A stretch of 64,000 nucleotides of DNA from the human T2T-CHM13v2.0 reference genome, Homo sapiens, in the NCBI RefSeq assembly GCF_009914755.1, contig NC_060933.1, one strand, 5' to 3'. The notes below the pieces were generated by a model. That model was not told the origin of the DNA. It saw nothing but the letters and a program-made list of their open reading frames with translations, and ran no database searches. Both the position numbers and the translations under genes were made by a program. Shown one piece after another: positions 9,340 through 55,150 of the stretch. How positions within the stretch are numbered: the stretch's first letter is position 1; every line of letters starts with the position of its first letter.

Positions 9340-9670
9340 ATGGAATGGAAACATCCCGAATGGAATGGAATGTAATGGAGTGTAAGGGAATTGAATAGAA
9401 TTAATCCGAATGTAATGGAATGGAATGGAATGAAATGGAATGGAATGGAATAGAATGGAATGGAATCAACCCGAGTGCAATGGAATGGATTCGAATGGAA
9501 TGGAATGGAATGGAAACATCCCGAATGGAATGGAATGTAATGGAGTGTAAGGGAATTGAATAGAATTAATCCGAATGTAATGGAATGGAATGGAATGAAA
9601 TGGAATGGAATGGAATAGAATGGAATGGAATCAACCCGAGTGCAATGGAATGGATTCGAATGGAATGGAA
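9340..9670 (+). repeat. Local tandem duplication, 165-bp unit x2
   Basis: ACATCCCGAA at 9351 and 9516, and the variant TTAATCCGAATGTAA at 9401 and 9566, are both 165 bp apart; GGATTCGAATGG is also repeated. Ends are approximate. Confidence 0.85.
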
Positions 9671-15789: not shown

Positions 15790-15915
15790 GAATGGAATGG
15801 AATGGAATGGAATGGAATGAAATGCAATGGATTCAACTCGATTGCAATGGAATGGAATGGAATGGAATGGAATGGAATGAAATGCAATGGATTCAACTCG
15901 ATTGCAATGGAATGG
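15790..15915 (+). repeat. Local tandem duplication, 60-bp unit x2
   Basis: AATGGAATGAAATGCAATGGATTCAACTCGATTGCAATGG occurs at 15811 and again at 15871. Confidence 0.85.
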
Positions 15916-17895: not shown

Positions 17896-17955
17896 GGAAC
17901 GGAACGGAAAGGAACGGAACGGAACGGAACGGAACGGAACGGAACGGAACGGAAC
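17896..17955 (+). repeat. (GGAAC)n variant-pentamer expansion
   Basis: Nine perfect GGAAC units at 17911-17955, preceded by GGAAC GGAAC GGAAA. Equivalent sites elsewhere carry about 1-5 units. Confidence 0.9.
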
Positions 17956-22609: not shown

Positions 22610-23040
22610 GGAATGGAATGGAACGGAACGGAATGGAATGCAATGGAATGGAATGGAATGGAATGGAATGGAATGGAATCAACCCAAATGCAGGGGAATG
22701 GAATGGAATGGAATGGAATGGAATGGAATCATCCGGAACGGAATAGAATGGAATGGAATGGAATCAACTCGATTGCAATGGAATGGAATGGAATGGAATG
22801 GAATTAAACCGAATAGAATGGAATGGAATGGAATGGAACGGAACGGAATGGAATGCAATGGAATGGAATGGAATGGAATGGAATGGAATGGAATCAACCC
22901 AAATGCAGGGGAATGGAATGGAATGGAATGGAATGGAATGGAATCATCCGGAACGGAATAGAATGGAATGGAATGGAATCAACTCGATTGCAATGGAATG
23001 GAATGGAATGGAATGGAATTAAACCGAATAGAATGGAATG
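22610..23040 (+). repeat. Local tandem duplication, 215-bp unit x2
   Basis: The private variant AACCCAAATGCAGGGG occurs at 22681 and 22896, and GAATTAAACCGAATAG at 22801 and 23016. Ends are approximate. Confidence 0.85.
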
Positions 23041-29000: not shown

Positions 29001-32000
29001 GAATGGAATGGAGTGGAATGGAATGGAATCAACCCGAGTGCAGGGGAATGGAATGGAATGGAATGCAATGGAATGGAATCATCCGGAATGGAATGGAATG
29101 GAATGGAATGCAAAGCAATGGAATCAACTCGATTGCAACGGAATGGAATGGAATGGAAAGGAATAGAATGGAATCAACCCGAGTGTAATGGAATGGAAAC
29201 GACTGGAATGGAGTGGAATGGAATGGAATGGAATGGAATGGAATGGAATCAACTCGATTGGAATGGAATGGAATGGAATGGAATGGAATGGAATGGAATT
29301 AACCCGAATAGAATGGAATGGAATGGAATGGAACGGAATGGAATGGAATAGAATGGAATAGAATGGAATGGAATGGAATCAACCCGACTGCAGGGGAATG
29401 GAATGGAATGGAATGGAATGGAATGGAATGGAATCATCCGGAATGGAATGGAATGGAATGGAATGGAATCAACTCGATTGCAATGGAATGGAATGGAATG
29501 GAATGGAATGGAATGGAATGGAATTCACCCGAATAGAATGGAATGGAATGGAATGGAAAGGAATGGAAGGGAAGGAAATGGAATGTAATCAACCCGAGTG
29601 CAGGGGAATGGAATGGAATGGAATGCAATGGATTGGAATCATCCGGAATGGAATCGAATGGAATGGAATGGAATGGAATGGAATGGAATGGTATCAACCC
29701 GAGTGCAGGGGAATGTAATGGAACTGAATGCAATGGAATGGAATCATCCGGAATGGAATGGAATGGAATGGAATGGAATGGAATCAACCCGAGTGCAATG
29801 GAATGGAGAGGAATGGAATGGAATGGAATGGAATGGAACAACCCGAATGGAATGGAATGTAATGGACAGTAAGGGAGTTGATTAGAATCAATCCGAATGT
29901 AATGGAATGGAATGCAACGGAATGGAATGGAATGGAATGCAATGGAATGGAATGGAATGGAATGCAAAGGAATGGAACCAACCCGAGTGGAATGGCATGG
30001 AATGGATTGCAATGGATTGGAATGGAGTGGAATCAACTCGAGTGGAAAGGAATGGAATGGAATGGAAAGGAATGGAATGAAGTCAACTCGAGTGGAATGG
30101 AATGGAATGGAATGGATTGGAATGGATTGCAATGGAATGAAATGGAATGGAATGGAATGGAATCAATCATTCCGAGTGGAATGGAAGGGAATGTAATGGA
30201 GTGGAAAGAAGGGAATGGAATCAACCCGAGTGCAATGCAAGGCAATGGAATGGAATGGAAAGGAATGGAATGGAATCAACTCGATTGCAATGGAATGGAA
30301 TGGAATGGAATGGAATGGAATGGAATGGACTTAACCAGAATAGAATGGAATGGAATGGAATGGAACGGAATGGAATGGAATGGAAGGGAATGGAATCAAC
30401 ACGAGTGCAGGGGAATGGAATGGAATGGAATGCAATGGAAGGGAATCATCCGGAATGGAATGGAATGGAATGGAATAAACTCCATTGCAATGGAATGGAA
30501 TGGAATGGAATGGAATAGAATGGAATGGAATTAACCCGAATAGAATGGAATGCAATAGAATGGAATACAACGGAACCGAATGGAGTGGAATGGAATGGAA
30601 TGGAATCAACCCGAGTACAGGGGAATGGAAAGGAATGGAAAGCAATGGAATAGAGTCATCCGTAACGGAATGGAAAGGAATGGAATGGAATGGAATGGAA
30701 TGGAATGGAATGGAATGGAATGGAATCAACTCGATGGCAATCGAATGGAATGGAATGGAATTAACCCGAATAGAATGGAATGGAATGGAATGGAACGGAA
30801 CGGAATGGAATGGAATGGAATGGAATGGAATGGAACGGAACGGAATGGAAAGGAATGGAATGCAATGGAATCAACGCGAGTGCAGGGGAATGGAATGGAA
30901 TGGAATGGAATGGAATGGAATGGAATGGAATCTTCCGGAATGGAATGGAATGGAATGGAATGGAATGAAAGGAAATGGATTCAACTCGATTGCAATGGAA
31001 TGGAATAGAATGGAATGGAATTGAATGGAATGGAATGGAATTGAATGGAATGGAATGCCTTCAAACCGAATGGAATGGAAAGGAATGGAATCAACACGAG
31101 TGGAAAGGAATGGAATGGAAAGGAATGGAATGGAATGGAATGGTACGGAATAGAATGGAATGGAACGAACTGGAATGGAATGGAATGGAATGGAATGGAA
31201 TGGAATGGAATGGAATCGTTCCGAGTGGAATAGGAGGGAATGTATTCGAGTGGAATGGAAAAGAATGGAATCAACCAGAGTGGAATGGAAGGGAATGGAA
31301 TGGAATGGAAACTAATAGAATGGAATCAACCCGAGTGGAATGGAATGGAAAGGACTGGAATGGAATGGAATGGAATGGAATGGAATGGAATCAACTCGAG
31401 TAATGGAATGGAATGGAATGGAATGGAATGGAATGGAATGGAATGGAATTAACCCGAATACAATGGAATGGAATGGAATGGAACAGAATGGAGTGGAATG
31501 GAATGGAATCAACCCGAGTGCAGGGGAATGGAATGGAATGGAATGCAATGTAATGGAATCATCCGGAATGGAATGGGATGGAATGGAATGGAATGGAATG
31601 GAATGGAATGGAATGGAATCAACGCGAGTGCAGGGGAATGGAATGGAATGGAATGCAATGGAATGGAATCTTCCGGAATGGAATGGAATGGAATGGAATG
31701 GAATGGAATGGAATCAACCCGAGTGCAATGGAATGGAGTGGAATGGAATGGAATGGAATGGAATGGAACAACCCTAATGGAATGGAATGTAATGGAGAGT
31801 AAGGGAGTTGAATAGAATCAATCCGAATGTAATGGAATGGAATGGAACGGAATGGAATTGAATGGAATGGAATGGAATGCAATGGAATCGAATCAACCCG
31901 AGTGCAATGGAATGGAGAGCAATGGAATGGAATGGAATGGAAACTACCCGAATGGAATGGAATGTAATGGAGTGTAAGGGAATTGAATAGAATCAATCCG

Positions 32001-35000
32001 AATGTAATGGAATGGAATGGAACGGAATGGAATGGAATGGAATGGAATGGAATGGAATGGAATGGAATGCAATGGAATGGAATCAACCCGAGTGCAATCG
32101 AATGGAATCGAATGGAATGGAATGCAATGGAATGGATTCAACTTGAATGGAATGGAAAGAATGGAATCAACACGAGTGGAATGGCATGGATTGGAATGGA
32201 AAGGAATGGAATCAACCCGAGTACAGGGGAATGGAATGGAATGGAATGCAATGGAATGGAATCATCCGTAATGGAATGGAAAGCAATGGAATGGAATGGA
32301 ATCAACTCGAATGCAATGGAATGGAATGGAATGGAATTAACCCGAATAGAATGGAATGGAATGGAATGGAACGGAACTGAATGGAATGGAATTGAATGGA
32401 ATTGAACGGAATGGAATGGAATGCAATGGAATGGAATGGAATGGAATGGAATGGAATCAACGCGAGTGCAGGGGAATGGAATGGAATGGAATGCAATGGA
32501 ATGGAATCTTCCGGAATGGAATGCAATGGAATGGAATGGAATGGAATGCAATGGATTCAACTCGATTGCAATGGAATGGAATAGAATGGAATGTAATGGA
32601 ATGGAATGGAATTAATCCGAATAGAATGGAATGGAATGGAATGGAACGGAATGGAACGGAATGGAATGGAATGGAATGGAATGGAATGGAATGGTATGGA
32701 ATGGAATGGAATTTTACGGAATAGAATGGAATGGAACGAATTGTAATGGAATGGAATTGAATGGAATGGAATGGAATGGAATGGAATGGAATGGAATGCA
32801 ATGGAATTGAATCAACCCGAGTACAATGGAATGCAATGGAATGGAATGGAATGGAATGGAATGATACGGAATAGAATGGAATGGAACGAAATGGAATGGA
32901 ATGGAATGGAATGGAATGGAATGGAATGGAATGGAATCGTTCCGAGTGGAATAGGAGGGAATGTATTCGAGTGGAATGGAAAGGAATGGTATCAACCAGA
33001 GTGGAATGGAAGGGAATGGAATGGAATGGAAACTAATAGAATGGAATCAACCCGAGTGGAATGGAATGGAAAGGACTGGAATGGAATGGAATGGAATGGA
33101 ATCAACTCGATTGTAATGGAATGGAATGGAATGGAATGGAATGGAATTAACCCGAATACAATGGAAAGGAATGGAATGGAACGGAATGGAGTGGAATGGA
33201 ATGGAATCAACCCGAGTGCAGGGGAATGGAATGGAATGGAATGCAATGGAATGGAATCATCCGGAATGGAATGGAATGGAATGGAATGCAAAGCAATGGA
33301 ATCAACTGGATTGCAATGGAATGGAATGGAATGGAAAGGAATACATTGGAATCAACCCGATTGGAATGGAATGGAAAGGACTGGAATGGAGTGGAATGGA
33401 ATGGAATGGAATGGAATGGAATCAACTCGATTGGAATGGAATGGAATGTATTGGAATGGAATTAACCCGAATAGAATGGAATGGAATGGAATGGAACGGA
33501 TCGGAATGCAATGGAATGGAATGTAATGGAATGGAATGGAATGGAATCAACCCGACTGCTGGGTAATGGAATGGAATGGAATGCAATGGAATGGATTCAA
33601 CTTGAATGGAATGGAAAGAATGGAATGAACACGAGTGGAATGGCATGGATTGGAATGGAATGGAATGGAATCAACCCGAGTACAGGGGAATGGAATGGAA
33701 TGGAATGCAATAGAATGGAATCATCTGTAATGGAATGGAAAGGAATGGAATGGAATGGAATAGAATGGAATGGAATCAACTCGATTGCAATCGAATGGAA
33801 TGGAATGGAATTAACCCGAATAGAATGGAATGGAATGGAATGGAACGGAACGGAACGGAATGGAATGGATTGGATTGGAATGGAATGGAATGGAATGGAA
33901 TGGAACGGAAAGGAATGGAATGGAATGGAATGGAATGGAATGGAATGGAATGGAATCAACGCGAGTGCAGGGGAATGGAATGGAATGGAATGCAATGGAA
34001 TGGAATCTTCCGGAATGGAATGCAATGGAATGGAATGGAATCAACCCGAGTGCAATGGAATGGAGTGGAATGGAATGAAATGGAATGGAACAACCCGAAA
34101 GGAATCGAATGTAATGGAGAGTAAGGGAGTTGAATAGAATCAATCCGAATGTAATGGAATGGAATGGAATGGAATGGAATGCAATGGAATGGAATCAACC
34201 CGAGTGCAATGGAATGGAGAGGAATGGAATGGAATGGAATGGAAACTACCCGAATGGAATGGAATGTAATGGAGTGTAAGGGAATTGAATAGAATCAATC
34301 CGAATGTAATGGAATGGAATGGAACGGAATGGAATGGAATGGAATGGAATCAACCCGAGTGCAGTGGAATGGAGTGGAATGGAATGGAATGGAAGGGAAT
34401 GGAACAACCCGAATAGAATCGAATGTAATGGAGAGTAAGGGAGTTGAATAGAATCAATCCGAATGTAATGGAATGGAATGGAACGGAATGGAATTGAATG
34501 GTATGGAATGGAATGCAATGGAATGGAATCAACCCGAGTGCAATGGAATGGAGAGGAATGGAATGGAAACTACCCGAATGGAATGTAATGTAATGGAGTG
34601 TAAGGGAATTGAATAGAATCAATCCGAATGTAATGGAATGGAATGGAACGGAATGGAATGGAATGGAATGGAATGGAATGGAATCAACGCGAGTGCAGGG
34701 GAATGGAATGGAATGGAATGCACTGGAATGGAATCTTCCGGAATGGAATGGAATGGAATGGAATGGAATCAACCCGAGTGCAATGGAATGGAGTGGAATG
34801 GAATGAAATGGAATGGAACAACCCGAAAGGAATCGAATGTAATGGAGAGTAAGGGAGTTGAATAGAATCAATCCGAATGTAATGGAATGGAATGGAATGG
34901 AATGGAATGCAATGGAATGGAATCAACCCGAGTGCAATGGAATGGAGAGGAATGGAATGGAATGGAATGGAAACTACCCGAATGGAATGGAATGTAATGG

Positions 35001-35639
35001 AGTGTAAGGGAATTGAATAGAATCAATCCGAATGTAATGGAATGGAATGGAAAGGAATGGAATGGAATGGAATGGAATGGAATGGAATGGAATGCAATGC
35101 AATGGAATGGAATCAACCCGAGTACAATGGAATGGAATGGAATGGAATGGAATGGAATGGAATGGAATGCCTTCAAACCGAATGGAATGAAAAGGAATGG
35201 AATCAACACGAGTGCAATGGAATGGAATGGAATGGAATGGAATGGAATGGAATGGAATGGAATGGAATGATACGGAATAGAATGGAATGGAACGAAATGG
35301 AATGGAATGGAATGGAATGGAATGGAATGGAATGGAATGGAATGGAATCGTTCCTAGTGGAATAGGAGGGAATGTATTCGAGAGGAATGGAAAGGAATGG
35401 AATCAACCAGAGTGGAATGGAAGGGAATGGAATGGAATGGAAACTAATAGAATGGAATCAACCCGAGTGGAATGGAATGGAAAAGACTGGAATGGAAAGG
35501 AATGGAATGGAATGGAATGGAATGGAATAAAATGGAATGGAATGGAATGGAATAAACGCGAGTGCAGGGGAATGGAATGGAATCGAATGGAATGGAATGG
35601 AATGGAATGGAATCAACCCGAGTGCAGGGGAAAGGAATG

Positions 35640-37990
35640 GAACGGAATGCAATGGAATGGAATCATCCGGAATGGAATGGAATGGAATGGAATGGAATCA
35701 ACCCGAGTGCAATGGAATGGAGTGGAATGGAATGGAATGGAATGGAACAACCCGAATGGAATGGAATGTAATGGAGAGTAAGGGAGTTGAAAAGAATCAA
35801 TCCGAATGTAATGGAATGGAATGGAACGGAATGGAAAGGAATGGAATGGAATGGAATGGAATGGAATGGAATGCAATGGAATGGAATCAACCCGAGTACA
35901 ATGGAATGGAATGGAATGGAATGGAATGGAATGGAATGGAATGGAATGATACGGAATAGAATGGAATGGAACGAAATAGAATGGAATGGAATGGAATGGA
36001 ATGGAATGGGATGGAATCGAATCGTTCCGAGTGGAATAGGAGGGAATGTATTCGAGTGGAATGGAAAGGAATGGAATCAACCAGAGTGGAATGGAAGGGA
36101 ATGGAATGGAATGGAAACTAATAGAATGGAATCAACCCGAGAGGAATAGAATGGAAAGGACTGGAATGGAATGGAATGGAATGGAATCAACTCGATTGTA
36201 ATGGAATGGAATGGAATGGAATGGAATGGAATGGAATTAACCCGAATACAATGCAATGGAATGGAATGGAACGGAATGGAGTGGAATGGAATGGAATCAA
36301 ACCGAGTGCAGGGGAATGGAATGGAATGGAATGCAATGGAATGGAATCATCCGGAATGCAATGGAATGGAATGGAATGGAATGCAAAGCAATGGAATCAA
36401 CTCGATTGCAATGGAATGGAATGGAATGGAAAGGAATACATTGGAATGAACCCGAGTGGAATGGAATGGAAAGGACTGGAATGGAGTGGAATGGAATGGA
36501 ATGGAATGGAATGGAATCAACTCGATTGGAGTGGAATGGAATGGAATGGAATGGAATGAAATGGAATTAAACCGAATAGAATGCAATGGAATGGAATGGA
36601 ACGGAACGCAATGGAATGGAATGGAATGGAATGGAATGGAATGGAATGGAATGGAATGGAATGGAAACATCCCGACTGCAGGGGAATGGAATGGAATGGA
36701 ATGCAATGGAATGGATTCAACTTGAATGGAATGGAAAGAATGGAATCAACACGAGTGGAATGGCATGGATTGGAATGGAATGGAATGGAATCAACCCGAG
36801 TACAGGGGAATGGAATGGAACGGAATGCAATGGAATGGAATCATCCGGAATGGAATGGAATGGAATGGAATGGAATCAACCCGAGTGCAATGGAATGGAG
36901 TGGAATGGAATGGAATGGAATGGAACAACCCGAATGGAATGGAATGTAATGGAGAGTAAGGGAGTTGAAAAGAATCAATCCGAATGTAATGGAATGGAAT
37001 GGAACGGAATGGAATGGAATGGAATGGAATGGAATGGAATGGAATGGAATGGAATGCAATGGAATGGAATCAACCCGAGTACAATGGAATGGAATGGAAT
37101 GGAATGGAATGGAATGATACGGAATAGAATGGAATGGAACGAAATAGAATGGAATGGAATGGAATGGAATGGAATGGAATGGAATCGAATCGTTCCGAGT
37201 GGAATAGGAGGGAATGTATTCGAGTGGAATGGAAAGGAATGGAATCAACCAGAGTGGAATGGAAGGGAATGGAATGGAATGGAAACTAATAGAATGGAAT
37301 CAACCCGAGAGGAATAGAATGGAAAGGACTGGAATGGAATGGAATGGAATGGAATCAACTCGATTGTAATGGAATGGAATGGAATGGAATGGAATGGAAT
37401 GGAATGGAATTAACCCGAATACAATGCAATGGAATGGAATGGAACGGAATGGAGTGGAATGGAATGGAATCAACCCGAGTGCAGGGGAATGGAATGGAAT
37501 GGAATGCAATGGAATGGAATCATCCGGAATGGAATGGAATGGAATGGAATGGAATGCAAAGCAATGGAATCAACTCGATTGCAATGGAATGGAATGGAAT
37601 GGAAAGGAATACATTGGAATGAACCCGAGTGGAATGGAATGGAAAGGACTGGAATGGAGTGGAATGGAATGGAAAGGAATGGAATGGAATCAACTCGATT
37701 GGAATGGAATGGAATGGAATGGAATGGAATGAAATGGAATTAAACCGAATAGAATGCAATGGAATGGAATGGAATGGAACGCAATGGAATGGAATGGAAT
37801 GGAATGGAATGGAATGGAATGGAATGGAAACATCCCGACTGCAGGGGAATGGAATGGAATGGAATGCAATGGAATGGATTCAACTTGAATGGAATGGAAA
37901 GAATGGAATCAACACGAGTGGAATGGCATGGATTGGAATGGAATGGAATGGAATCAACCCGAGTACAGGGGAATGGAATGGAATGGAATG
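35640..37990 (+). repeat. Tandem duplication of a ~1.17-kb unit x2
   Basis: Shared rare variants in the same order: GTTGAAAAGAATC (35786/36964), CAACCCGAGAGGAATAG (36133/37301), CATTGGAATGAACCCGAG (36439/37612), AAACATCCCGACTGCAG (36665/37828). Offsets are 1163-1178 bp. Ends are approximate. Confidence 0.85.
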
Positions 37991-40900
37991 CAATGGAATG
38001 GAATCATCCGTAATGGAATGGAAAGGAATGGAATTGAATGGAATGGAATGGAATGGAATGGAATCAACTCGATTGCAATCGAATGGAATGGAATGGAATT
38101 AACCCGAATAGAATGGAATGGAATGGAATGGAACGGAACGGAACGGAATGGAATGGATTGGAATGGAATGGAATGGAATGGAATGGAATGGATCGGAAAG
38201 GAATGGAATGGAATGGAATGGAATGGAATGGAATGGAATGGAATCAACGCGAGTGCAAGGGAATGGAATGGAATGGAATGCAATGGAATGGAATCTTCCG
38301 GAATGGAATGGAATGGAATGGAATGGAATGGAATGGAATGGAATGGAATGGAATGGAATAAACCCGAGTGCAATGGAATGGAGTGGAATGGAATGGAATG
38401 GAATGGAATGGAATCGTTCCGAGTGGAATAGGAGGGAATGTTTTCGAGTGGAATGGGAAGGAATGGAATCAACCAGAGTGGAATTGAAGGGAATGGAATG
38501 GAATGGAAACTAATAGAATGGAAGCAACCCGAGTGGAATGGAATGGAAAGGACTGGAATGGAATGGAATGGAATGGAATGGAGTGGAATAAACTCGATTG
38601 TAATGGAATGGAATGGAATGGAATGGAATGGAATGGAATGGAATTAACCCGAATACAATGGAATGGAATGGAATGGAACGGAATGGAGTGGAATGGAATG
38701 GAATCAACCCGAGTGCAGGGGAATGGAATGGAATGGAATGCAATGGAATGGAATCATCCGGAATGGAATGGAATGGAATGGAATGCAAAGAAATGGAATC
38801 AACTCGATTGCAATGGAATGGAATGGAATGGAAAGGAATAGAATGGAATCAAACCGAGTGTAATGGAATGGAAAGGACTGGAATGGAGTGGAATGGAATG
38901 GAATGGAATGGAATGGAATTAACCCGAATAGAATGGAATGGAATGGAATGGAATGGAAAGGAATGGAGTCAACCCGACTGCAGGGAATGGAAGGGAATGG
39001 AATGGAATGGAATGGAATCATCCGGAACGGAATGGAATGGAATGGAATGGAATGGAATCAACTCGATTGCAATGGAATGGAATGGAATGGAATGGAATAT
39101 AATGGAATTAACCGGAATAGAATGGAATGGAATGGAATGGAACGGAATGGAATGGAATGGAATGGAATGGAATGGAATGGAATGGAATCAACCCGAGTGC
39201 AGGGGAATGGAATGGAATGGAATGCAATGGAATGGAATCATCCGGAATGGAATGGAATGGAATGGAATGCAATCAACCTGATGCAATGGAATGGAGTGGA
39301 ATGGAATGGAATGGAATGGAAACATCCCGAATGGAATGGAATGTACTGGAGTGTAAGGGAATGGAATAGAATCAATCCGAATGTAATGGAATGGAATGGA
39401 ATGAAATGGAATGGAATGGAATGGAATGGAATCAACCCGAGTGCAATGGAATGGATTCGAATGGAATGGAATGGAATGGAATGGATTCAACAAGAATGGA
39501 ATAGAAAGGACTGGAATCAACCCGAGTGTAATGGCATGGAATGGAACGGAATGGAATGGGATGGAATGGAATGGTACGGAATAGAATGGAATGGAATGAA
39601 ATGGAATGGAATGGAATGGAATGGAATGAACCCGTGTGCAATGGAATGGAATGGAATGGAATGGAATGGATTCAACTCGAATGGAATCAACTCGATTGCA
39701 AAGGAATGGAATGGAATTGAAAGGAATAGAATGGAATCAACCCGAGTGGAATGGAATGGAAAGGACTGGAATGGAGTGGAATGGAATGGAATGGAATTAA
39801 ACCGAATAGAATGAAATGGAACGGAATGGAATGGAATGTAATGGAATGGAATGGAATGGAATCAACTCGATTTCAATGGAATGGAATGGAATAGAATGGA
39901 TTGGAATTAACACGAAAGAATGGAATGGAATGAAATGGAATGTAAAAGAAAGGAATGGAATGGAATGGAATGGAATCAACCCAAGTGCAGGGGAATGGAA
40001 TGGAATGGAATTCAATGGAATGGAATCATCCGGAATGGAATGGAATGGAATGGAATGGAATGGAATGGAATGAAATGGAATGGAATGGAATGGAATGGAA
40101 TCAAAACGATTGCAATCGAATGGAATGGAATGGAATTAACCCGAATAGAATGGAATGGAATGGAATGGAATGGAATGGAACGGAACGGAACGGAACGGAA
40201 TGGAATGGAATGGAATGGAATGGAACGGAAGAAAATGGAATGGAATGGAATGGAATGGAATGGAATGGAATCAACGCGAGTGCAGGGGAATGGAATGGAA
40301 TGGAATGCAATGGAATGGAATCTTCCGGAATGGAATGGAATGGAATGGAATAGAATGGAATGGAATGGAATGGAATGGAATCAACCCGAGTACAGGGGAA
40401 TGGAATGGAATGTAATGTAATGGAATGGAATCATCCGTAATGGAATGGAAAGGAATGGAATGGAATGGAATGGAATGGAATGGAATGGAATGGAATCAAC
40501 TGGATTGCATTCGAATGGAATGGAATGGAATTAACCCGAATAGAATGGAATGGAATGGAACGGAACGGAAAGGAACGGAATGGAATGGAATGGAATGGAA
40601 CGGAACGGAACGGAATGGAATGGAATGGAATGGAAAGGAATGGAATGGAATCAACGCGAGTGCAGGGGAATGGAATGGAATGGAATGCAATGGAATGGAA
40701 TCTTCCGGAATGGAATGGAATGTAATGCAATGGATTCAACTCGATTGCAATTTAATGGAATAGAATGGAATGGAATGGAATGGAATGGAATGGTATGGAA
40801 TGGAATGGAATGGTACGGAATAGAATGGAATGGAAAGAATTGGAATGGAATGGAATCGAATGGAATGGAATGGAATGGAATGGAATCAACCCGAGTGCAG

Positions 40901-42480
40901 GGGAATGTAATGGAACGGAATGTAATGGAATGGAATCATCCGGAATGGAATGGAATGGAATGGAATGGAATGGAATGGAATGGAATGGAACCAACTCGAT
41001 TGTGATGGAATGGAATGGAATGGAATGGAATGGAATGGAATGGAATGGAATTAACCGGAATACAATGGAATGGAATGGAATGGAACGGAATGGAGTGGAA
41101 TGGAATGGAATCAACCCGAGTGCATGGGAATGGAATGGAATGGAATGCAATGGAATGGAATCATTCGGAATGGAATGGAATGGAATGGAATGCAAAGCAA
41201 TGGAATCAACTCGATTGCAATGGAATGGAATGGAATGGAAAGGAATACATTGGAATCAACCCGAGTGGAATGGAATGGAAAGGACTGGAATGGAGTGGAA
41301 TGGAATGGAATGGAATGGAATGGAATCAACACGATTGGAATGGAATAGAATGGAATGGAATGGAATGGAATGGAACGGAACGGAACGGAACGGAACGGAA
41401 TGGAATGGAATGGAATGGAATGGAATCAACCCGACTGCAGGGGAATGGAATGGAATGGAATACAATGGAATGGATTCAACTTGAATGGAATGGAAAGAAT
41501 GGAATCAACACGAGTGGAATGGCATGGATTGGAATGGAATGGAATGGAATCAACCCGAGTACAGGGCAATGGAATGGAATGGAATGCAATGGAATGGAAT
41601 CATCCGTAATGGAATGGAAAGGAATGGAATGGAATGGAATGGAATGGAATGGAATGGAATGGAATCAACTCGACTGCAGTCGAATGGAATGGAATGGAAT
41701 TAACCCGAATAGAATGGAATGGAATGGAATGGAACGGAACGGAACGAAACGGAATGGAATGGAATGGAATGGAATGGAATGGAACGGAAAGGAATGGAAT
41801 GGAATGGAATGGAATGGAATCAACGCGAGTGCAGGGGAATGTAATGGAACGGAATGCAATGGAATCATCCGGAATGGAATGGAATGGAATGGAATGGAAT
41901 GGAATGGAATGGAATCAACCCGAGTGCAATGGAATGGAGTGGAACGGAATGGAATGGAATAGAACAACCCGAATGGAATGGAATGTAATGGAGAGTAAGG
42001 GAGTTCAATAGAATCACTCCGAATGTAATGGAATGGAACGGAATGGAAAGGAATGGAATGGAATGGAATGCAATGGAATGGAATCAACCCGAGTACAATG
42101 GAACGGAATGTAATGTAATGGAATGGAATGGAATGGAATGGAATAGAATGGAATGGAATCAACCCGAGTGCAATGGAATGGATAGGAATGGAATGGAATG
42201 GAATGGAAACTACCCGAATGGAATGGAATGTAATGGAGTGTAAGGGAATTGAATAGAATAAATCCGAAAGGAATGGAATGGAATGGAACGGAATGTAATG
42301 TAATGGAATGGAATGGAATCAACCCGAGTGCAGGGGAATGGAATGGAATGGAATGCAATGGAATGGAATCATCCGGAATGGAATGGAATGGAATGCAATG
42401 GAATGGAATGGAATGGAATCAACCTGAGTGCAATGGAATGGACTGAAATGGAATGGAATGGAATGGAAACAACGAGAATG

Positions 42481-42500
42481 CAATGGAATGCACTCGGGTT
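42481..42500. other. Inversion breakpoint (strand switch) inside the satellite array
   Basis: The sequence reads ...GAGAATGCAATGGAA-TGCA-CTCGGGTTGATTCC...; GGAAT phase ends and CATTC phase begins. TGCA at 42489-42492 can be assigned to either arm (GGAATGCA on the left, TGCACTCGGG on the right). Confidence 0.95.
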
Positions 42501-43405
42501 GATTCCATTCCATTGCATTCCATTCCATTCCATTCCATTCCATTCCTTTCCGTTCCATTCCATTTCATTACATTCAGATTGATTCTATTCAATTCCCTTA
42601 CACTCCATTATATTCCATTCCATTCGGGTAGTTTCCATTCCATTCCATTCCTTTCCTCTCTATTCCATTGCACTCGGGTTGATTCCATTCCATTCCATTC
42701 CATTCCATTCCATTCCATTCCATTCCATTCCATTCCATTCCATTGTACTCGGGTTGATTCCATTACATTGCATTCCATTCCATTCCATTCCATTCCATTC
42801 CGTTCCATTCCATTCCATTACATTCGGATTGATTCTATTCAACTCCCTTACTCTCCATTACATTCCATTCCATTCGGGTTGTTCCATTCCATTCCATTCC
42901 ATTCCAATCCATTCCATTGCACTCGGGTTGGTTCCATTCCATTCCATTCCATTCCATTCCATTCCATTCCATTCCATTCGATTCCATTCCATTCGATTCC
43001 ATTCAATTCCAATTCTTTCCATTCCATTCTATTCTGTACCATTCCATTCCATTCCATACAATTCCATTCCATTCCATTCCATTCCATTCCATTCCATTCC
43101 ATTCGGTTCCGTTCCGTTCCGTTCCGTTCCATACCATTCCATTCCATTCTATTCGGGTTAATTCCATTCCATTCCATTCCATTCCATTCCATTCCATTCT
43201 ATTCCATTTCATTGCAATCGAGTTGAATCCATTGCATTCCATTCCATTCCATTCCATTCCATTCCATTCCATTCCATTCCATTCCTTTACATTCCATTAC
43301 GGATGATTCTATTCCATTGCATTACATTCCATTCCATTCCCCTGTACTCGGGTTGATTCCATTCCATTCCATTCCATTCCATTCTAATCCATTCCATTCC
43401 ATTCC

Positions 43406-43420
43406 ATTCCGGAAGATTCC
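43406..43420. promoter_or_regulatory. Canonical heat-shock element match ATTCCGGAAGATTCC (first of 11 copies seen in the right arm)
   Basis: Reverse complement of the left-arm element (nTTCn-nGAAn-nTTCn). Right-arm starts: 43406, 44810, 45674, 48476, 49021, 49874, 50967, 54061, 57365, 60754, 62746. Function is inferred. Confidence 0.55.
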
Positions 43421-46400
43421 ATTCCATTTCATTCCATTCCATTCCATTCCCCTGCACTCACGTTGATTCCTTTCCATTCCATTCCATTCCGTTCCATTCC
43501 GTTCCGTTCCGTTCCATTCCATTCCATTCCATTCCATTCCGTTCCGTTCCGTTCCGTTCCGTTCCGTTCCATTCCATTCCATTCCATTCTATTCGGGTTA
43601 ATTCCATTCCATTCCATTCCATTCCATTCCATTCCATTACAATCGAGTTGATTCGATTCCATTCCATTCCAGTCCATTCCATTCCATTCCACTCCATTCC
43701 AGTCCTTTCCATTCCATTCCACTCGGGTTGATTCCAATGTATTCCTTTCCGTTCCATTCCATTCCATTGCAATCGAGTTGATTCCATTGCTTTGCATTCC
43801 ACTCCATTCCATTCCATTCCGGATGATTGCATTCCATTGCATTCCATTCCATTCCATTCCCCTGCACTCGGGTTGATTCCATTCCATTCCACTCCATTCC
43901 GTTCCATTCCATTCCATTCCATTGTATTCGGGTTAATTCCATTCCATTCCATTCCATTCCATTCCATTCCATTCCATTCCATTACAATCGGGTTGATTCC
44001 ATTCCATTCCATTCCATTCCAGTCCTTTCCATTCCATTCCACTCGGGTTGATTCCATTCTATTAGTTTCCATTCCATTCCATTCCCTTCCATTCCACTCT
44101 GGTTGATTCCATTCCTTTCCATTCCACACGAATACATTCCCTCCTATTCCACTCGGAACCATTCCATTCCATTCCATTCCATTCCATTCCATTCCATTCC
44201 ATTTCGTTCCATTCCATTCTATTCCGTAACATTCCATTCCATTCCGTTCCATTCCATTCCATTCCATTGTACTCGGGTTGATTCAATTCCGTTGCATTCC
44301 ATTCCATTCTATTCCATTCCATTCCGTTGCATTCCATTCCATTACATTCGGATTGATTCTATTCAACTCCCTTACTCTCCATTACATTCCATTCCATTCG
44401 GGTTGTTCCATTCCATTCCATTCCATTCCACTCCATTCCATTGCACTCGGGTTGATTCCATTCCATTCCATTCCATTCCATTCCATTCCATTCCATTCCG
44501 GATGATTCCATTCCATTGCATTCCGTTCCATTACATTCCCCTGCACTCGCGTTGATTCCATTCCATTCCATTCAATTCCATTCCATTACAATTCGTTCCA
44601 TTCCATTCCATTCCATACCATTCCATTCCATTCCATTCCATTCCATTCCATTCCATTCCGTTCCATTCCGTTCCATTCCATTCCATTCCATTCTATTCGA
44701 ATTAATTCCATTCCATTCCATTCAATTCCATTCTATTCCATTCCATTGCAATCGAGTTGAATCCATTGCATTTCATTCCATTCCATTCCATTCCATTCCA
44801 TTCCATTCCATTCCGGAAGATTCCATTCCATTGCATTCCATTCCATTCCATTCCCCTGCACTCGCGTTGATTCCATTCCATTCCATTCCATTCCATTCCA
44901 TTCCATTCCGTTCCGTTCCCTTCCATTCCATTCCATTCCATTCCATTCCATTCCACTCCGTTCCGTTCCATTCCATTCCATTCCATTCTATTCGGGTTAA
45001 TTCCATTCCATTCCATTCGATTGCAATCGAGTTGATTCCATTCCATTCCATTCCATTCCATTCCATTCCATTCCATTCCTTTCCTTTCTATTACGGATGA
45101 TTCCATTTCATTGCATTCCATTCCATTCCATTCCCCTGTACTCGGGTTGATTCCATTCCATTCCTATTCCAATCCATGCCATTCCACTCGTGTTGATTCC
45201 ATTCTTTCCATTCCATTCAAGTTGAATCCATTCCATTGCATTCCATTCCATTCGATTCCATTCGATTGCACTCGGGTTGATTCCATTCCATTGCAATCCA
45301 TTCCATTCCATTCCATTGCATTCCATTCCATTCCATTCAATTCCATTCCATTACATTCGGATTGATTCTATTCAATTCCTTTACACTCCATTACATTCCA
45401 TTCCATTCGGGTAGTTTCCATTCCATTCCATTCCATTCCTCTCCATTCCATTGCACTCGGGTTGATTCCATTCCATTGCATTCCTTTCCATTCCATTCAA
45501 ATCCATTCCGTTCCATTCCATTCCATTACATTCGGATTGATTCTATTCAACTACCTTACTCTCCATTACATTCCATTCCATTCGGGTTGTTCCATTCCAT
45601 TCCATTCCATTCCACTCCATTCCATTGCACTCGGGTTGATTCCATTCCATTCCATTCCATTCCATTCCATTCCATTCCGGAAGATTCCATTCCATTGCAT
45701 TCCATTCCATTCCATTCCCCTGCACTCGCGTTTACTCCATTCCATTCCATTCTATTCCATTCCATTCCCTTCCTTTCCGTTCCATTCCATTCCATTCCAT
45801 TCCGTTCTGTTCCATTCCATTCCATTCCATTCTATTCGGGTTAATTCCATTCCATTCCATTCGATTGCAATCGAGTTGATTCCATTCCATTCCATTCCAT
45901 TCCATTCCATTCCATTCCATTCCATTCCATTCCGGATGATTCCATTCCATTGCATTCCATTCCATTCCATTCCCCTATACTCGGGTTGATTCCATTCCAT
46001 TCCATTCCAATCCATGCCATTCCACTCGTGTTGATTCCATTCTTTCCATTCCATTCAAGTTGAATCCATTCCATTACATTCCATTCCATTCGATTCCATT
46101 CTATTGCACTCGGGTTGATTCCATTCCATTGCATTCCATTCCATTCCATTCCATTCAATTCCGTTCCATTCCATTTCATTACATTGAGATTGATTCTATT
46201 CAATTCCCTTACACTCCATTATATTCCAATCCATTCTGGTTGTCTCCATTCCATTCCATTCCATTTCACTCCATTCCATTGCACTCGGGTTGATTCCATT
46301 CCATTCCATTCCATTGCATTCCATTCCATTCCATTCCGGATGATTCCATTCCATTGCATTCCATTCCATTCCATTCCCCTGCACTCGGGTTGATTCCATT

Positions 46401-49400
46401 CCATTCCATTCCATTACATTCCGTTCCATTCCATTCCATTCCATTCGGATTGATTCTATTCAATTCCCTTACACTCCATTACATTCCATTCCATTCGGGT
46501 AGTTTCCATTCCATTCCATTCCATTCCTATCCATTCCATTGCACTCGGGTTGATTCCATTCCATTCCATTCCATTCCATTCCATTCCATTACATTCCATT
46601 CCATTACATTCCATGCCATTCCATTCCGTTCCATTGTACTCGGGTTGATTCCATTCCATTGCATTCCATTCCATTCCATTCCATTCCATTCCATTCCATT
46701 CCATTCCATTCCATTCCGGATGATTCCATTGCATTGCATTCCGTTCCATTCGATTCCATTCCATTCCAATTCTTTCCATTCCATTCTATTCCGTACCATG
46801 CCATTCCATTCCATACAATTCCATTCCATTCCATTCCACTCCGTTCCGTTCCGTTCCGTTCCGTTCCTTTCCATTCCATTCCATTCTATTCGGGTTAATT
46901 CCATTCCATTCCATTCGATTGCAATCGAGTTGATTCCATTCCATTCCATTCCATTCCATTCCATTCCATTCCATTCCATTCCTTTCCATTCCATTACGGA
47001 TGATTCCATTCCATTGCATTCCATTCCATTCCATTCCCCTGTACTCGGGTTGATTCCATTCCATTCCATTCCAATCCATGCCATTCCACTCGTGTTGATT
47101 CCATTCTTTCCATTCCATTCAAGTTGAATCCATTCCATTGCCTTCCATTCCATTCCATTCCCCTGCAGTCGGGTTGATTCCATTCCATTCCATTCCATTC
47201 CATTCCATTCCGATCCGTTCCATTCCATTCCATTCCATTCTATTCGGGTTAATTCCATTCCATTCCTTTCCATTCCATTCCAATCGATTTGATTCCATTC
47301 CATTCCATTCCATTCCATTCCACTCCATTCCAGTCCTTTCCATTCCATTCCACTAGGGTTGATTCCAATGTATTCCTTTCCATTCCATTCCATTCCATTG
47401 CAATCGAGTTGATTCCATTGCTTTGCATTCCATTCCATTCCATTCCATTGCGGATGATTCCATTCCATTGCATTCCATTCCATTCCATTCCCCTTCACTC
47501 GGGTTGATTCCATTCCATTCTACTCCATTCCGTTCCATTCCATTCCATTCCATTGTATTCGGGTTAATTCCATTCCATTCCATTCCATTGCATTCCATTC
47601 CATTCCATTACAATCGAGTTGATTCCATTCCATTCCATACCATTCCAGTCCTTTCCATTCCATTCCACTCGGGTTGATTCCATTCTATTAGTTTCCATTC
47701 CATTCCCTTCCCTTCCATTCCACTCTGGTTGATACCATTCCTTTCCATTCCACTCGAATACATTCCCTCCTATTCCACTCGGAACGATTCCATTCCATTC
47801 TATTCCATTCCATTCCATTCCATTCCATTCCATTTCGTTCCATTCCATTCTATTCCGTATCATTCCATTCCATTCCATTCCATTCCATTCCATTCCATTC
47901 CATTCCATTCCATTGTACTCGGGTTGATTCAATTCCATTGCATTCCATTCCATTCCATTCCATTCCATTCCGTTGCATTCCATTCCATTACATTCGGATT
48001 GATTCTATTCAACTCCCTTACTCTCCATTACATTCCATTCCATTCGGGTTGTTCCATTCCATTCCATTCCATTCCATTCCACTCCATTCCATTGCACTCG
48101 GGTTGATTCCATTCCATTCTATTCCATTCCATTCCATTCCATTCCATTCCGGATGATTCCATTCCATTGCATTCCGTTCCATTACATTCCCCTGCACTCG
48201 CGTTGATTCCATTCCATTCCATTCCATTCCATTCAATTCCATTCCATTACAATTCGTTCCATTCCATTCTAATCCGTACCATTCCATTCCATTCCATTCC
48301 ATTCCATACCATTCCATTCCATTCCAATCCATTCCATTCCGTTCCATTCCGTTCCATTCCATTCCATTCCATTCTATTCGGATTAATTCCATTCCATTCC
48401 ATTCCATTCCATTCTATTCCATTCCATTGCAATCGAGTTGAATCCATTGCATTTCATTCCATTCCATTCCATTCCATTCCAGAAGATTCCATTCCATTGC
48501 ATTCCATTCCATTCCATTCCCCTGCACTCGCGTTGATTCCATTCCATTCCATTCCATTCCATTCCATTCCGTTCCGTTCCATTCCATTCCATTCCATTCA
48601 ATTCCATTCCGTTCCGTTCCATTCCATGCCATTCCATTCTATTCGGGTTAATTCCATTCCATTCCATTCGATTGCAATCGAGTAGATTCCATTCCATTCC
48701 ATTCCATTCCATTCCATTCCATTCCTTTCCATTCCATTTCGGATGATTCCATTCCATTGCATTCCATTCCATTCGATTCCATTCGATTACACTCGCGTTG
48801 ATTCCATTCCATTGCATTCCATTCCATTCCATTCCATTCCATTCCATTCCGTTCCATTCCATTCCATTACATTCGGATTGATTCTATTCAATTCCCTTAC
48901 ACTCCATTACATTCCATTCCATTCGGGTAGTTTCCATTCCATTCCATTCCATTCCTCTCCATTCCATTGCACTCGGGTTGATTCCATTCAATTCCATTCC
49001 ATTCCATTCCATTCCATTCCATTCCGGAAGATTCCATTCCATTGCATTCCATTCCATTCCATTCCCCTGCACTCGCGTTGATTCCATTCCATTCCATTCT
49101 ATTCCATTCCATTCCCCTCCTTTCCGTTCCATTCCATTCCATTCCATTCCATTCCATTCCATTCCGTTCCATTCCATTCCATTCCATTCCATTCCATTCC
49201 ATTCTATTCGGGTTAATTCCATTCCATTCCATTCGATTGCAATTGAGTTGATTCCATTCCATTCCATTCCATTCCTTTCCTTTCCATTCCATTACGGATG
49301 ATTCCATTCCATTGCATTCCATTCCATTCCATTCCCCTGTATTCAGGTTGATTCCATTCCATTCCATTCCAATCCATGCCATTCCACTCGTGTTGATTCC

Positions 49401-52388
49401 ATTCTTTCCATTCCATTCAAGTTGAATCCATTCCATTTCATTCCATTCCATTCGATTCCATTCGATTGCACTCGGGTTGATTCCATTCCATTGCATTCCA
49501 TTCCATTCCATTCCATTCCATTCCGTTCCATTCCATTCCATTACATTCGGATTGATTCTATTCAATTCCCTTACACTCCATTACATTCCATTCCATTCGG
49601 GTAGTTTCCATTCCATTCCATTCCATTCCTCTCCATTCCATTGAACTCGGGTTGATTCCATTCCATTGCATCCCATTCCATTCCATTCAATTCCATTCCG
49701 TTCCATTCCATTCCATTACATTCAGATTGATTCTATTCAACTCCCTTACTCTCCATTACATTCCATTCCATTCGGGTTGTTCCATTCCATTCCATTCCAT
49801 TCCACTCCATTCCATTGCACTCGGGTTTATTCCATTCCATTCCATTCCATTCCATTCCATTCCATTCCATTCCATTCCGGAAGATTCCATTCCATTGCAT
49901 TCCATTCCATTCCATTCCCCTGCACTCGCTTTGATTCCATTCCATTCCATTCCATTCCATTCCATTCCATTCCATTCCATTCCTTTCCGTTCCATTCCAT
50001 TCCATTCCATTCCATTCCAATCCATTCCATTCCGTTCCGTTCCGTTCCATTCCATTCCATTACATTCTATTCGGGTTAATTCCATTCCATTCCATTCGAT
50101 TGCAATCGAGTTGATTCCATTCCATTCCATTCCGTTCCATTCCATTACGGATGATTCCATTCCATTGCATTCCATTCCATTCCATTCCCCTGTACTCGGG
50201 TTGATTCCATTCCATTCCATTCCAATCCATGCCGTTCCACTCGTGTTGATTCCATTCTTTCCATTCCATTCAAGTTGAATCCATTCCATTGCATTCCATT
50301 CCATTCCATTCCCCTGCAGTCGGGTTGTTTCCATTCCATTCCATTCCATTCCATTCCATTCCATTCCATTCCATTCAATTCCGTTCCGTTGTACTCGGGT
50401 TGATTCCATTCCATTGCATTCCATTCCATTCCATTCCATTCCATTCCATTCCATTCCGTTCCATTCCATTACATTCGGATTGATTCTATTTAACTCCCTT
50501 ACTCTCCATTACATTCCATTCCATTCGGGTTGTTCCATTCCATTCCATTCCGCTCCACTCCATTACATTGCGCTCGGGTTGATTCCATTCCATTCCATTC
50601 CATTCCATTCCATTCCATTACATTACATTCCATTCCGGATGATTCCATTCCATTGCATTCCGTTCCATTACATTCCCCTGCACTCGGGTTGATTCCATTC
50701 CATTCCATTCCATTCCATTCGATACCATTCCATTCCAATTCTTTCCATTCCATTCTATTCCGTACCATTCCATTCCATTCCATACAATTCCATTCCATTC
50801 CATTCCACTCCATTCCGTTCCGTTCCGTTCTGTTCCGTTCCATTCCATTCCATTCCATTCTATTCGGTTTAATTCCATTCCATTCCATTCCATGCCATTC
50901 CATTCTATTCCATTCCATTGCAATCGAGTTGAATCCATTGCATTCCATTCCATTCCATTCCATTCCATTCCGGAAGATTCCATTCCATTGCATTCCATTC
51001 CATTCCATTCCATTCCTTTCCATTCCATTCCATTCCATTCCATTGTACTCGGGTTGATTCCATTCCATTGCATTCCATTCCATTCCATTCCATTCCGTTC
51101 CATTCCATTCGGATTGATTCTTTTCAACTCCCTTACTCTCCATTACATTCCATTCCATTCGGGTTGTTCCATTCCATTCCATTCCATTCCGCTCCATTCC
51201 ATTGCACTCGGGTTGATTCCATTCCATTCCATTCCATTCCATTCCATTCCAGATGATTCCATTCCATTGCATTCCGTTCCATTACATTCCCCTGCACTCG
51301 GGTTGATTCCATTCCATTCCTTTCCATTCCATTCGATTCCATTCCATTCCCCTGCACTCGCGTTGATTCCATTCCATTCCATTCCATTCCATTCCATTCC
51401 ATTCCATTCCATTCCTTACCGTTCCATTCCATTCCATTCCATTCCATTCCATTCCGTTCCGTTCCATTCCATTCCATTCCATTCTATTCGGGTTAATTCC
51501 ATTCCATTCCATTCGATTGCAATCGAGTTGATTCCATTCCATTCCATTCCATTCCATTCCATTCCATTCCAGTCCTTTCCATTCCTTTCCATTCCATTAC
51601 TGATGATTCCATTCCATTGCATTCCATTCCATTCCATTCCCCTGTACTCGGGTTGATTCCATTCCATTCCATTCCAATCCATGCCATTCCACTCGTGTTG
51701 ATTCCATTCTTTCCTTTCCATTCAAGTTGAATCCATTCCATTGCATTCCATTGCATTCGATTCCATTCGATTGCACTCGGGTTGATTCCATTCCATTGCA
51801 TTCCATTCCATTCCATTCCATTCCATTCCATTCCATTCCATTTCATTACATTCAGATTGATTCTTTTCAATTCCCTTAAACTCCATTATATTCCAATCCA
51901 TTCTAGTTGTTTCCATTCCATTCCATTTCACTCCATTCCATTGCACTCGGGTTGATTCCATTCCATTCCATTCCATTGCATTCCATTCCATTCCATTCCG
52001 GATGATTCCATTCCATTGCATTCCGTTCCATTACATTCCCCTGCACTCGCGTTGATTCCATTCCATTCCATTCCATTCCATTCAATTCCATTCCATTACA
52101 ATTCGTTCCATTCCATTCTATTCCGTACCATTCCATTCCATTCCATACCATACCATTCCATTCCATTCCATTCCATTCCATTCCATTCCCCTGCACTCGG
52201 GTTGATTCCATTCCATTCCATTCCATTACATTCCGTTCCATTCCATTCCATTCCATTCGGATTGATTCTATTCAATTCCCTTACACTCCATTACATTCCA
52301 TTCCATTCGGGTAGCTTCCATTCCATTCCATTCCATTCCTCTCCATTCCATTGCACTCGGGTTGATACCATTCCATTCCATTCCATTC

Positions 52389-52420
52389 CATTACATTACA
52401 TTACATTACATTACATTACA
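52389..52420 (-). repeat. (CATTA)6 / (TAATG)6 variant-pentamer expansion
   Basis: Six tandem CATTA units. Homologous sites (42110, ~55177, ~57624) have two. Confidence 0.9.
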
Positions 52421-54829: not shown

Positions 54830-55150
54830 TTACATTCCGTTCCATTCCATTCCATTCCATTCGGATTGATTCTATTCAATTCCCTTACACTCCATTCCAT
54901 TCCATTCCATTCGGGTAGTTTCCATTCCATTCCATTCCATTCCTCTCCATTCCATTGCACTCGGGTTGATTCCATTCCATTCCATTCCATTCCATTCCAT
55001 TCCATTCCATTACATTCCGTTCCATTCCATTCCATTCCATTCGGATTGATTCTATTCAATTCCCTTACACTCCATTACATTCCATTCCATTCGGGTAGTT
55101 TCCATTCCATTCCATTCCATTCCTCTCTATTCCATTGCACTCGGGTTGAT
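54830..55150 (-). repeat. Local tandem duplication, 180-bp unit
   Basis: TCGGATTGATTCTATTCAATTCCCTTACAC occurs at 54861 and 55041, and TCGGGTAGTTTCC at 54911 and 55091. Confidence 0.8.

What the first reader, a model, noticed from the sequence alone, without database searches (positions are those of the whole stretch)
42400..42680. Clean inversion junction through a TGCA micro-palindrome, with both arms ending at almost the same point of the repeat unit
Seen: the strand flips at 42489-42492 (TGCA, self-complementary, shared by both arms) with no inserted foreign DNA. The left arm stops just after GGACTGAAATGG...GGAAACAACGAGAATG. In intact copies (19191-19290; reverse complement at 46170-46275, 57215-57325, 63280-63385) this module continues AATATAATGGAGTGTAAGGGAATTGAATAGAATCAATCTGAATGTAATGAAATGG. 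That same rare continuation is present, reverse-complemented, in the first ~130 bp of the right arm (42560-42615). Inference: a fold-back or template-switch event (microhomology-mediated) between near-equivalent positions, rather than random end joining of two unrelated arrays. Established: strand inversions are rare in most satellite arrays but were reported as numerous in the chr9 HSat3 array of complete human assemblies.
Basis: partly seen in the sequence, partly recalled or inferred. Interest (0 to 1): 0.75.

Follow-up and report, generated by a model that had tools for sequence, protein, structure and literature searches.

The report
Cloned inversion junction in chromosome-9 satellite
The chromosome 9 satellite DNA really flips direction here, and this same flip is present in 31 copies along the array, so most of the array's 200-odd known flips likely descend from a few old events rather than from hundreds of separate inversions.

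Summary
The strand flip at 42489-42492 is real and lies in the chr9 HSat3B5 array, where more than 200 such switches are already published. It is not single-copy. The same junction, with the same private variants on both arms, occurs 31 times between chr9 52.9 and 76.4 Mb, in both orientations, at about 1.1% divergence, and on no other chromosome. So one founder was amplified. Four junction families hold 167 of at least 211 switches (at most 79%).

TGCA belongs to the right arm; only TG is shared. Eight bases (42481-42488) are not in the left arm's intact copies and mirror the right arm's own nearby sequence, which suggests a short snap-back insertion. The two arms are no closer to each other than ordinary copies are, so a fold-back of one copy is not supported, though an old one is not excluded. 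The near-equal unit position arises by chance 6-9% of the time. This copy also has a 245-bp deletion in its right arm.

The phenomenon is known. The founder-family structure was not found in the papers searched.

The parts
1..42490 (+). Left arm: HSat3B5 satellite with the GGAAT strand on +
   Evidence: 25 HSat3B5 24-mers, all on -
42489..64000 (-). Right arm: HSat3B5 satellite with the GGAAT strand on -
   Evidence: 23 HSat3B5 24-mers, all on +
42420..42480 (+). Left-arm end carrying family-diagnostic alleles (T at 42425, C at 42443) and a base private to this copy (G at 42474)
   Evidence: the 34-mer holding 42443 occurs at 31 places, 30 of them junction copies; the extra one is an intact module in another context
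42476..42480 (+). GAATG: last bases matching the intact left-arm module; inferred 5-nt capture microhomology
   Evidence: inference
42481..42488 (+). 8 bases not in intact left-arm modules; reverse complement of 42508-42515; inferred templated (snap-back) insertion
   Evidence: inference
42489..42492 (.). TGCA at the strand switch; native to the right arm, with TG (42489-42490) shared
42476..42520 (.). Perfect 15-bp inverted repeat (42476-42490 / 42506-42520) around a 15-nt loop; ends abruptly at 42475
   Evidence: the outer 13-bp run is kept in 25 of 30 copies; runs this long are common in the null
42521..42611 (-).
42612..42617 (-). Inferred crossover zone of a deletion of about 245 bp between neighbouring sub-repeats, seen only in this copy of the family
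   Evidence: arm marker 176 bp from the junction here, 416-431 in 25 other copies, absent in 4
19191..19290 (+). Intact copy of the rare module (different upstream context)
46170..46275 (-). Intact copy of the rare module
57215..57325 (-). Intact copy of the rare module; shares one substitution and a 15-bp gap with the family's right arm
63280..63385 (-). Intact copy of the rare module

Best explanation
This is a head-to-head strand-switch junction of the chr9 HSat3B5 satellite present in 31 near-identical copies along the array; it likely formed once, by a short snap-back synthesis followed by microhomology end joining between two different copies of the same repeat unit, and was then copied as a passenger of array duplications. 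SHOWN: the flip, the 31 copies with shared private variants, about 1.1% divergence, both orientations, chr9 only. INFERRED steps: (1) a broken GGAAT-strand end of the right-arm unit, ending in TGCA, folded back on itself over an 11-nt loop (two terminal pairs, one mismatch, one pair); (2) a polymerase copied 13 nt; (3) the last 5 nt annealed to GAATG in an oppositely oriented end from another copy of the unit, leaving a net 8-nt insertion; (4) the junction was multiplied by tandem and multi-megabase duplications and re-oriented by exchanges hidden within homologous satellite. No function is implied: it is a scar and a lineage marker.
For: Amplification (about 0.95 on its own): 28 exact plus 2 one-mismatch copies of the junction 26-mer, all on C9; 30 of 30 fetched are true flips sharing variants on both arms; a 31st, partly deleted copy; 24 copies with intact arms show median divergence 1.1% in a mostly star-like tree, with only 13 distinct sequences; identical pairs lie about 8.7 and 10.6 Mb apart, and the published multi-megabase 9qh+ duplication (PMC9186530, passages) fits such offsets. 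Insertion: the junction-side 15-mer is absent from 336 of 336 intact local sub-modules; all 30 exact hits are junction copies, and the one-mismatch form with CCCG was listed only on C7 (12 sites); the extra bases are the exact reverse complement of right-arm bases 19 nt away, the only register with a run of 8 or more within 170 bp. Short fold-back insertions of about 5-34 bp captured by a second end are described in yeast (PMC11724301, passages). Two different copies: mirror arms differ by 11-13 events per 300 bp against 7-10 for four ordinary copies; at 9 fixed substitutions one arm or the other departs from the ordinary copies, and the arms share only one allele that most of those copies lack.
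Against: The inverted repeat alone is weak evidence: 3542 of 7630 random in-phase left ends give a run of 13 or more against this right arm, and 216 of 7630 end in the same 15-mer. One G-to-C change in a hybrid parent would also give these bases; such a parent type with matching upstream sequence exists (1 of 8 sites examined). The second end landed in the same rare module (5 of 51 sub-modules in the window), which a random second end would do only a few percent of the time; this favours the same-molecule rival. The left arm's private allele is almost confined to the family (30 of 31), so arm differences may have built up after joining. The reciprocal junction was not found. No reads or other genomes were examined.
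Confidence: 0.45

Rival explanations
1. Old same-molecule fold-back in two steps: the end snapped back, copied 13 nt, slipped about 125 nt upstream on its own strand and went on copying. This made an inverted duplication with a short spacer, whose arms diverged long before the junction was amplified. It is the first reader's idea in modified form.
For: Family copies mirror the same higher-order unit for about 700 bp at a 119-139 bp offset. It needs only one broken end. The arms share one allele that 3 of 4 close ordinary copies lack. A left-arm private allele is nearly family-confined. Published fold-backs show spacers, 2-8 bp microhomology and templated insertions (PMC3907307, passages).
Against: Arm-to-arm distance (11 substitutions) is at the top of the range among six module copies (5-12) and about three times the family's spread. 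The right arm shares a substitution and a 15-bp gap with the ordinary copy at 57215 and not with the left arm. Near-register homology occurs in 6-9% of random pairs and is absent or weak at two other junction families. Published human spacers are 766 bp or longer.
Confidence: 0.25
2. Plain end joining or template switch at a 2-bp TG microhomology between two unit copies, with no insertion. The odd bases come from a hybrid left parent plus one point change before amplification.
For: A hybrid parent type one base from the junction sequence exists at 14 C9 sites. The founder carried several private changes. The other families join through short overlaps of about 2-5 bp without an obvious insertion.
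Against: The left arm's upstream 300 bp matches the rare module whose continuation differs at 3 of 10 bases. Only 1 of 8 hybrid sites examined has the matching upstream motif. It needs a change at exactly the base that completes the local mirror.
Confidence: 0.22
3. One end of a simple reciprocal inversion cut and re-joined at TGCA, with the commonest tail-to-tail family (about 85 copies) as the other end.
For: That family also contains TGCA and starts with a similar downstream sub-module. The two families alternate at about 17.8 kb in four places.
Against: In intact copies, that family's TGCA arm is preceded by a different module that already supplies the three bases before TGCA, so its join is a CCGT overlap elsewhere. 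The other ends overlap by about 45 bp and differ in module type. Arm facing is random: 16/11/12/14, Fisher p = 0.41.
Confidence: 0.03
4. A recurrent hot spot: many independent inversions at the same motif.
For: The motif at the right-arm end is very common (127 copies in the window).
Against: All 30 fetched copies share the rare left-arm end and most share private variants on both arms. Divergence is 1.1%.
Confidence: 0.02
5. Assembly or read artefact (chimeric fold-back read).
For: No reads were examined here, and chr9 HSat3 needed special handling in the assembly (PMC9186530).
Against: An artefact would mirror identical sequence, but the perfect palindrome is 4 bp and the arms differ by about 4%. 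There are 31 copies with their own variants. About 129 switches per haplotype are reported across pangenome assemblies (10.64898/2026.09.03.749043, passages).
Confidence: 0.02

Closest known systems
Strand switches (inversion breakpoints) of the chr9 HSat3B5 array (Altemose et al., 10.1101/2021.07.12.452052; 10.64898/2026.07.22.740206; 10.64898/2026.09.03.749043)
   Same: Same array, same kind of feature. My minimum count of 211 switches agrees with 'over 200'.
   Different: The passages read count switches, report that their number scales with array length (r = 0.90) and call them stochastic by-products of expansion. They do not describe junction sequences or say that the switches are copies of a few founders. 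Their supplements were mostly not seen.
Local fold-back templated insertions at breaks, captured by end joining (yeast; PMC11724301). Polymerase-theta stem-loop insertions in animals are the recalled analogue.
   Same: Short inverted copy of sequence next to one end, primed by an imperfect microhomology and joined to a second end through 0-5 bp.
   Different: Here the priming match is only 3 of 4 bases and the loop 11 nt, the join is inverted rather than a repair of one break, and the low-complexity satellite makes chance mirrors common.
Fold-back inverted duplications with a spacer (Hermetz et al., PMC3907307)
   Same: Head-to-head geometry, short spacer, 2-bp or longer inverted microhomology, possible templated insertion.
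   Different: The arms are not identical or each other's closest relatives, the spacer (about 125 bp) is below the published range (766 bp and up), and no terminal deletion is involved.

Membership tests
HSat3, subfamily HSat3B5 | Array built on the CATTC/GGAAT pentamer | tested here: met
   (period 5, about 75% matches)
HSat3, subfamily HSat3B5 | Subfamily-specific 24-mer (Table 1 of PMC4022460) | tested here: met
   48 exact matches of the B5 24-mer; 0 for the B1 and B3 24-mers; the other 11 subfamily 24-mers were not tried
HSat3, subfamily HSat3B5 | Location in the chr9 pericentromeric block | tested here: met
   (C9:76.2 Mb); all junction copies lie on C9
Published chr9 HSat3 strand switches | Polarity change within the array | tested here: met
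Published chr9 HSat3 strand switches | Listed in the published strand annotation | not testable with these tools
   The Altemose supplementary tables were not seen, and the journal version is not held
Fold-back inverted duplication | Arms are copies of one locus (identical or each other's closest relatives) | tested here: not met
   an old event with later divergence is not excluded
Fold-back inverted duplication | Short single-copy spacer between mirrored arms | tested here: inconclusive
   119-139 bp offset in 27 of 30 copies; chance level 6-9%
Fold-back inverted duplication | 2-8 bp inverted microhomology at the join | tested here: met
   TG shared
Snap-back templated-insertion junction | Junction bases absent from both parents at that site | tested here: met
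   0 of 336 intact local sub-modules; exact genome hits only at junction copies
Snap-back templated-insertion junction | Insert is an exact inverted copy of sequence next to one end, beyond chance | tested here: inconclusive
   Exact 13-nt mirror, but such runs occur in 46% of random joins and the same 15-mer in 2.8%
Snap-back templated-insertion junction | Dependence on a given polymerase or end-joining pathway | not testable with these tools
   Historical germ-line event
Simple reciprocal inversion | A partner junction that restores both parents when undone | tested here: not met
   The best candidate family was rejected; 9 intervals that need a tail-to-tail switch hold no identified one, so a partner may be unseen

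The most novel reading that the evidence does not exclude
The 200-plus strand switches of the chr9 HSat3 array are not 200 inversions. Most are copies of a handful of founder junctions (four families hold 167 of at least 211 in CHM13), multiplied by duplication and silently re-oriented by exchanges between opposite-polarity blocks. This would explain why switch number tracks array length, and it gives rare unique markers for reconstructing how the 9qh block grew and rearranged.
Probability: 0.75. Interest if true: 0.6.

Novelty: new member of a known kind. Interest (0 to 1): 0.45.

Why it matters
The switch itself is one of a known set. What matters is that it is a clone. If most chr9 HSat3 switches descend from a few founders, breakpoint counts measure array amplification and not the inversion rate, which gives a concrete cause for the published length correlation (r = 0.90). 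Short junction k-mers then become probes that can be counted in any short-read genome to size and type the 9qh block, can be looked for in ape assemblies to date it, and can be ordered along haplotypes to trace duplications. The random pairing of junction arms implies many further inversions whose breakpoints are invisible because they fall in homologous satellite (inference). Transcripts reading through such a junction would be self-complementary (inference from the fold; not tested).

Tried and rejected
1. A DNA search with the 281-bp junction region returned a full-length match only to itself, but only 40 of 2767 candidates were scored. That was misleading, and the pattern search overturned it.
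2. A reciprocal partner through TGCA with a staggered-cut mechanism was considered after and rejected.
3. The two-mismatch family as a variant of this junction was rejected: its flanks differ.
4. Near-equivalent arm positions as a general rule of these junctions were not seen. Scores were 1-4 for the second head-to-head family, 7-35 and 15-76 for the two tail-to-tail families, and 38-73 for this one, against a control 90th percentile of 58.
5. The hairpin (z = -10.7) and the 15-bp inverted repeat as evidence by themselves were rejected, because any such junction folds.
6. Four candidate sites were dropped from the census. Two showed no flip when fetched, and two were dropped unfetched because they had the same matched string.
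7. Three searches for the missing head-to-head families found none, so 33 intervals that need such a switch remain unassigned.
8. Two papers (the journal version of Altemose 2022 and the 2022 review) are not held and were not read. Passages of PMC13456413, PMC11526998 and 10.1101/2025.07.12.664550 held nothing on these junctions.

Full report
OBSERVATION. The window is HSat3 throughout and has one polarity change: the per-kb counts of GGAAT and ATTCC swap between 42481 and 42501. The published HSat3B5-specific 24-mer (PMC4022460, passages and Table 1) matches 48 times, 25 on - to the left of the junction and 23 on + to the right; the B1 and B3 24-mers match 0 times. TGCA sits at 42489-42492 and the perfect palindrome goes no further.

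IT IS A CLONE. The 26-mer across the junction has 28 exact and 2 one-mismatch matches in the genome, all on C9 between 52.9 and 76.4 Mb and on both strands; the reversed-pattern control has 0. All 30 were fetched, and all are true GGAAT-to-ATTCC flips that share the rare left-arm end. A search for the left-arm end gave 30 exact hits: 29 are among those copies, and the other is a 31st copy that has lost the start of its right arm. Six copies with a replaced or deleted arm, the window's own among them, were left out of the tree. The other 24 differ by a median of 1.1% (range 0-3.1%), form a mostly star-like tree with no strongly supported fork, and hold only 13 distinct sequences. [quoted passage not shown] One founder, then amplification, is the only reading that fits.

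THIS COPY. It carries a private base at 42474. A right-arm marker lies 176 bp from the junction here, 416-431 bp in 25 other copies, and is absent in 4. The alignment shows one gap of about 245 bp between neighbouring sub-repeats, with the family's arm resuming beyond it. The sequence created at that join is not unique (72 exact matches), so the deletion is inferred from the markers on both sides.

ANATOMY OF THE JOIN. TGCA is native to the right arm. At the left arm's site, intact sub-modules read TGTA in 255 of 335 local copies, TATA in 35, TGGA in 23 and TGCA in 8, so TG is the shared part. Between the last bases that match the intact left module (42476-42480) and that TG lie 8 bases that intact copies do not have: 0 of 336 local sub-modules end in that 15-mer. 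These bases make 42476-42490 the exact reverse complement of 42506-42520; the match stops at 42475, it is the only register with a run of 8 or more within 170 bp, and its outer 13 bp are kept in 25 of 30 copies. That is the pattern expected if the right-arm end folded over an 11-nt loop, was extended by 13 nt and was then captured through 5 nt, as described for 5-34 bp fold-back insertions in yeast (PMC11724301, passages). The support is moderate. In this satellite 3542 of 7630 random left ends give an equally long mirror and 216 of 7630 end in the same 15-mer. A hybrid parent one base away exists at 14 C9 sites; 8 of these were examined, and 1 has the matching upstream motif.

FOLD-BACK OF ONE COPY? 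In 27 of 30 copies both arms end in the same rare module, 119-139 bp apart, and mirror each other for about 700 bp. The arms are, however, not each other's closest relatives. Over 300 bp the left arm differs from its mirror by 11-13 events, from four ordinary copies in the window by 7-10, and from other family left arms by 0-7 (14 non-junction copies compared, one of which proved to be the 31st junction copy). There are 9 fixed substitutions and a 15-bp gap between the arms. The right arm shares one substitution and the gap with the ordinary copy at 57215, and the two arms share one allele that 3 of the 4 close copies lack. Near-register homology of this strength occurs in 135 of 1462 random pairs and in 35 of 600 pairs that use this left arm, and it is not a rule at other families. 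In favour of an old fold-back, the left arm's private allele is found at 31 places, 30 of them junction copies (the other is an intact module in another context), so the arms may have diverged after joining. I put two different copies with a snap-back at 0.45, an old same-molecule fold-back at 0.25, and a plain TG join at 0.22.

OTHER FAMILIES AND CENSUS. Generic patterns for both polarities (only the first 100 rows of 349 and 770 were listed) led to more families. A tail-to-tail family has 80 exact and 7 one-mismatch hits on C9; 30 of 30 fetched flip, six more show the same arms, and two one-mismatch hits were dropped, leaving 85. A second head-to-head family has 40 hits, with 17 of 17 fetched flipping. 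A second tail-to-tail family has 11 hits, with 11 of 11 flipping. A fifth has 2 hits, with 1 of 1 fetched flipping. In all there are 169 sites between 51.07 and 76.39 Mb. Polarity must alternate, and 42 neighbouring pairs have the same polarity, so there are at least 211 switches, of which four families hold 167, or at most 79%. 73 of the 169 sites were not fetched. Which arm faces which is random (16/11/12/14, p = 0.41; computed before the four sites were dropped). Pure tandem copying would keep it fixed, so exchanges hidden within homologous satellite likely re-oriented the junctions (inference). The 85-copy family looked like the reciprocal end, but its TGCA arm comes from another module and joins by a CCGT overlap.

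WHAT IS KNOWN. Altemose et al. report over 200 inversion breakpoints in this array and the beta-satellite arrays (10.1101/2021.07.12.452052, passages). A 2026 preprint finds hundreds of switches, scaling with array length (r = 0.90), evenly spread, and calls them stochastic by-products of expansion (10.64898/2026.07.22.740206, passages and section 6). Another gives about 129 per haplotype (10.64898/2026.09.03.749043, passages; three supplementary files searched with nothing on this). Fold-back features are from PMC3907307 (passages). Seven searches for HSat3 or satellite inversions, judged from listings and the passages named, showed no description of these junction sequences or of founder families. 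The supplements of the Altemose and 740206 preprints, the journal version of the former and the 2022 review were not seen and may bear on this.

VERDICT. The feature is real, of a known kind, and has no sign of function. The added value is the clonal structure, which is directly testable with a few k-mers. Interest 0.45.

Noticed in passing
G000:C9, 85 sites from 52.34 to 76.36 Mb (L039-L068, L100-L105): The commonest junction family in the array, tail-to-tail, joined through a 4-bp CCGT overlap. Three distal copies carry a different downstream arm.
   Followed up: partly
G000:C9, 40 sites from 51.07 to 75.68 Mb (L069-L085): Second head-to-head family; the join is a near-palindrome with an overlap of about 5 bp.
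   Followed up: partly
G000:C9, 11 sites (L089-L099) and 2 sites (52767691, 61508322; L087): Two smaller junction families, one of each polarity.
   Followed up: partly
G000:C9 52.1-54.6 vs 60.8-63.4 Mb; about 55-61 vs 65.6-71.3 Mb: Junction order and spacing repeat at offsets of about 8.7 Mb and 10.6 Mb. The second may be the published 9qh+ duplication; the first looks like a further large duplication, with identical junction flanks.
   Followed up: partly
L012, L022, L033, L034, L038, L086: Six of 31 family copies have an arm replaced or cut within about 80 bp of the junction, showing frequent exchange right beside it.
   Followed up: partly
G000:C9:52936681-52975694 and 61676458-61715461: A 21.2-kb block holding one junction of each polarity is duplicated in tandem, at two places.
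   Followed up: no
G000:C9:48706331-48706385 (L118) and C9:76553375-76553450: Head-to-head switches near the two ends of the block that match none of the families. The first was fetched and flips; the second was seen only as a pattern hit.
   Followed up: partly
G000:C7 58.7-59.2 Mb; C2:89.36-89.38 Mb and 90.36-90.39 Mb; C21:6468782-6468831; C17:21960993: Pattern hits that suggest satellite strand switches, several as mirrored pairs, on other chromosomes.
   Followed up: no
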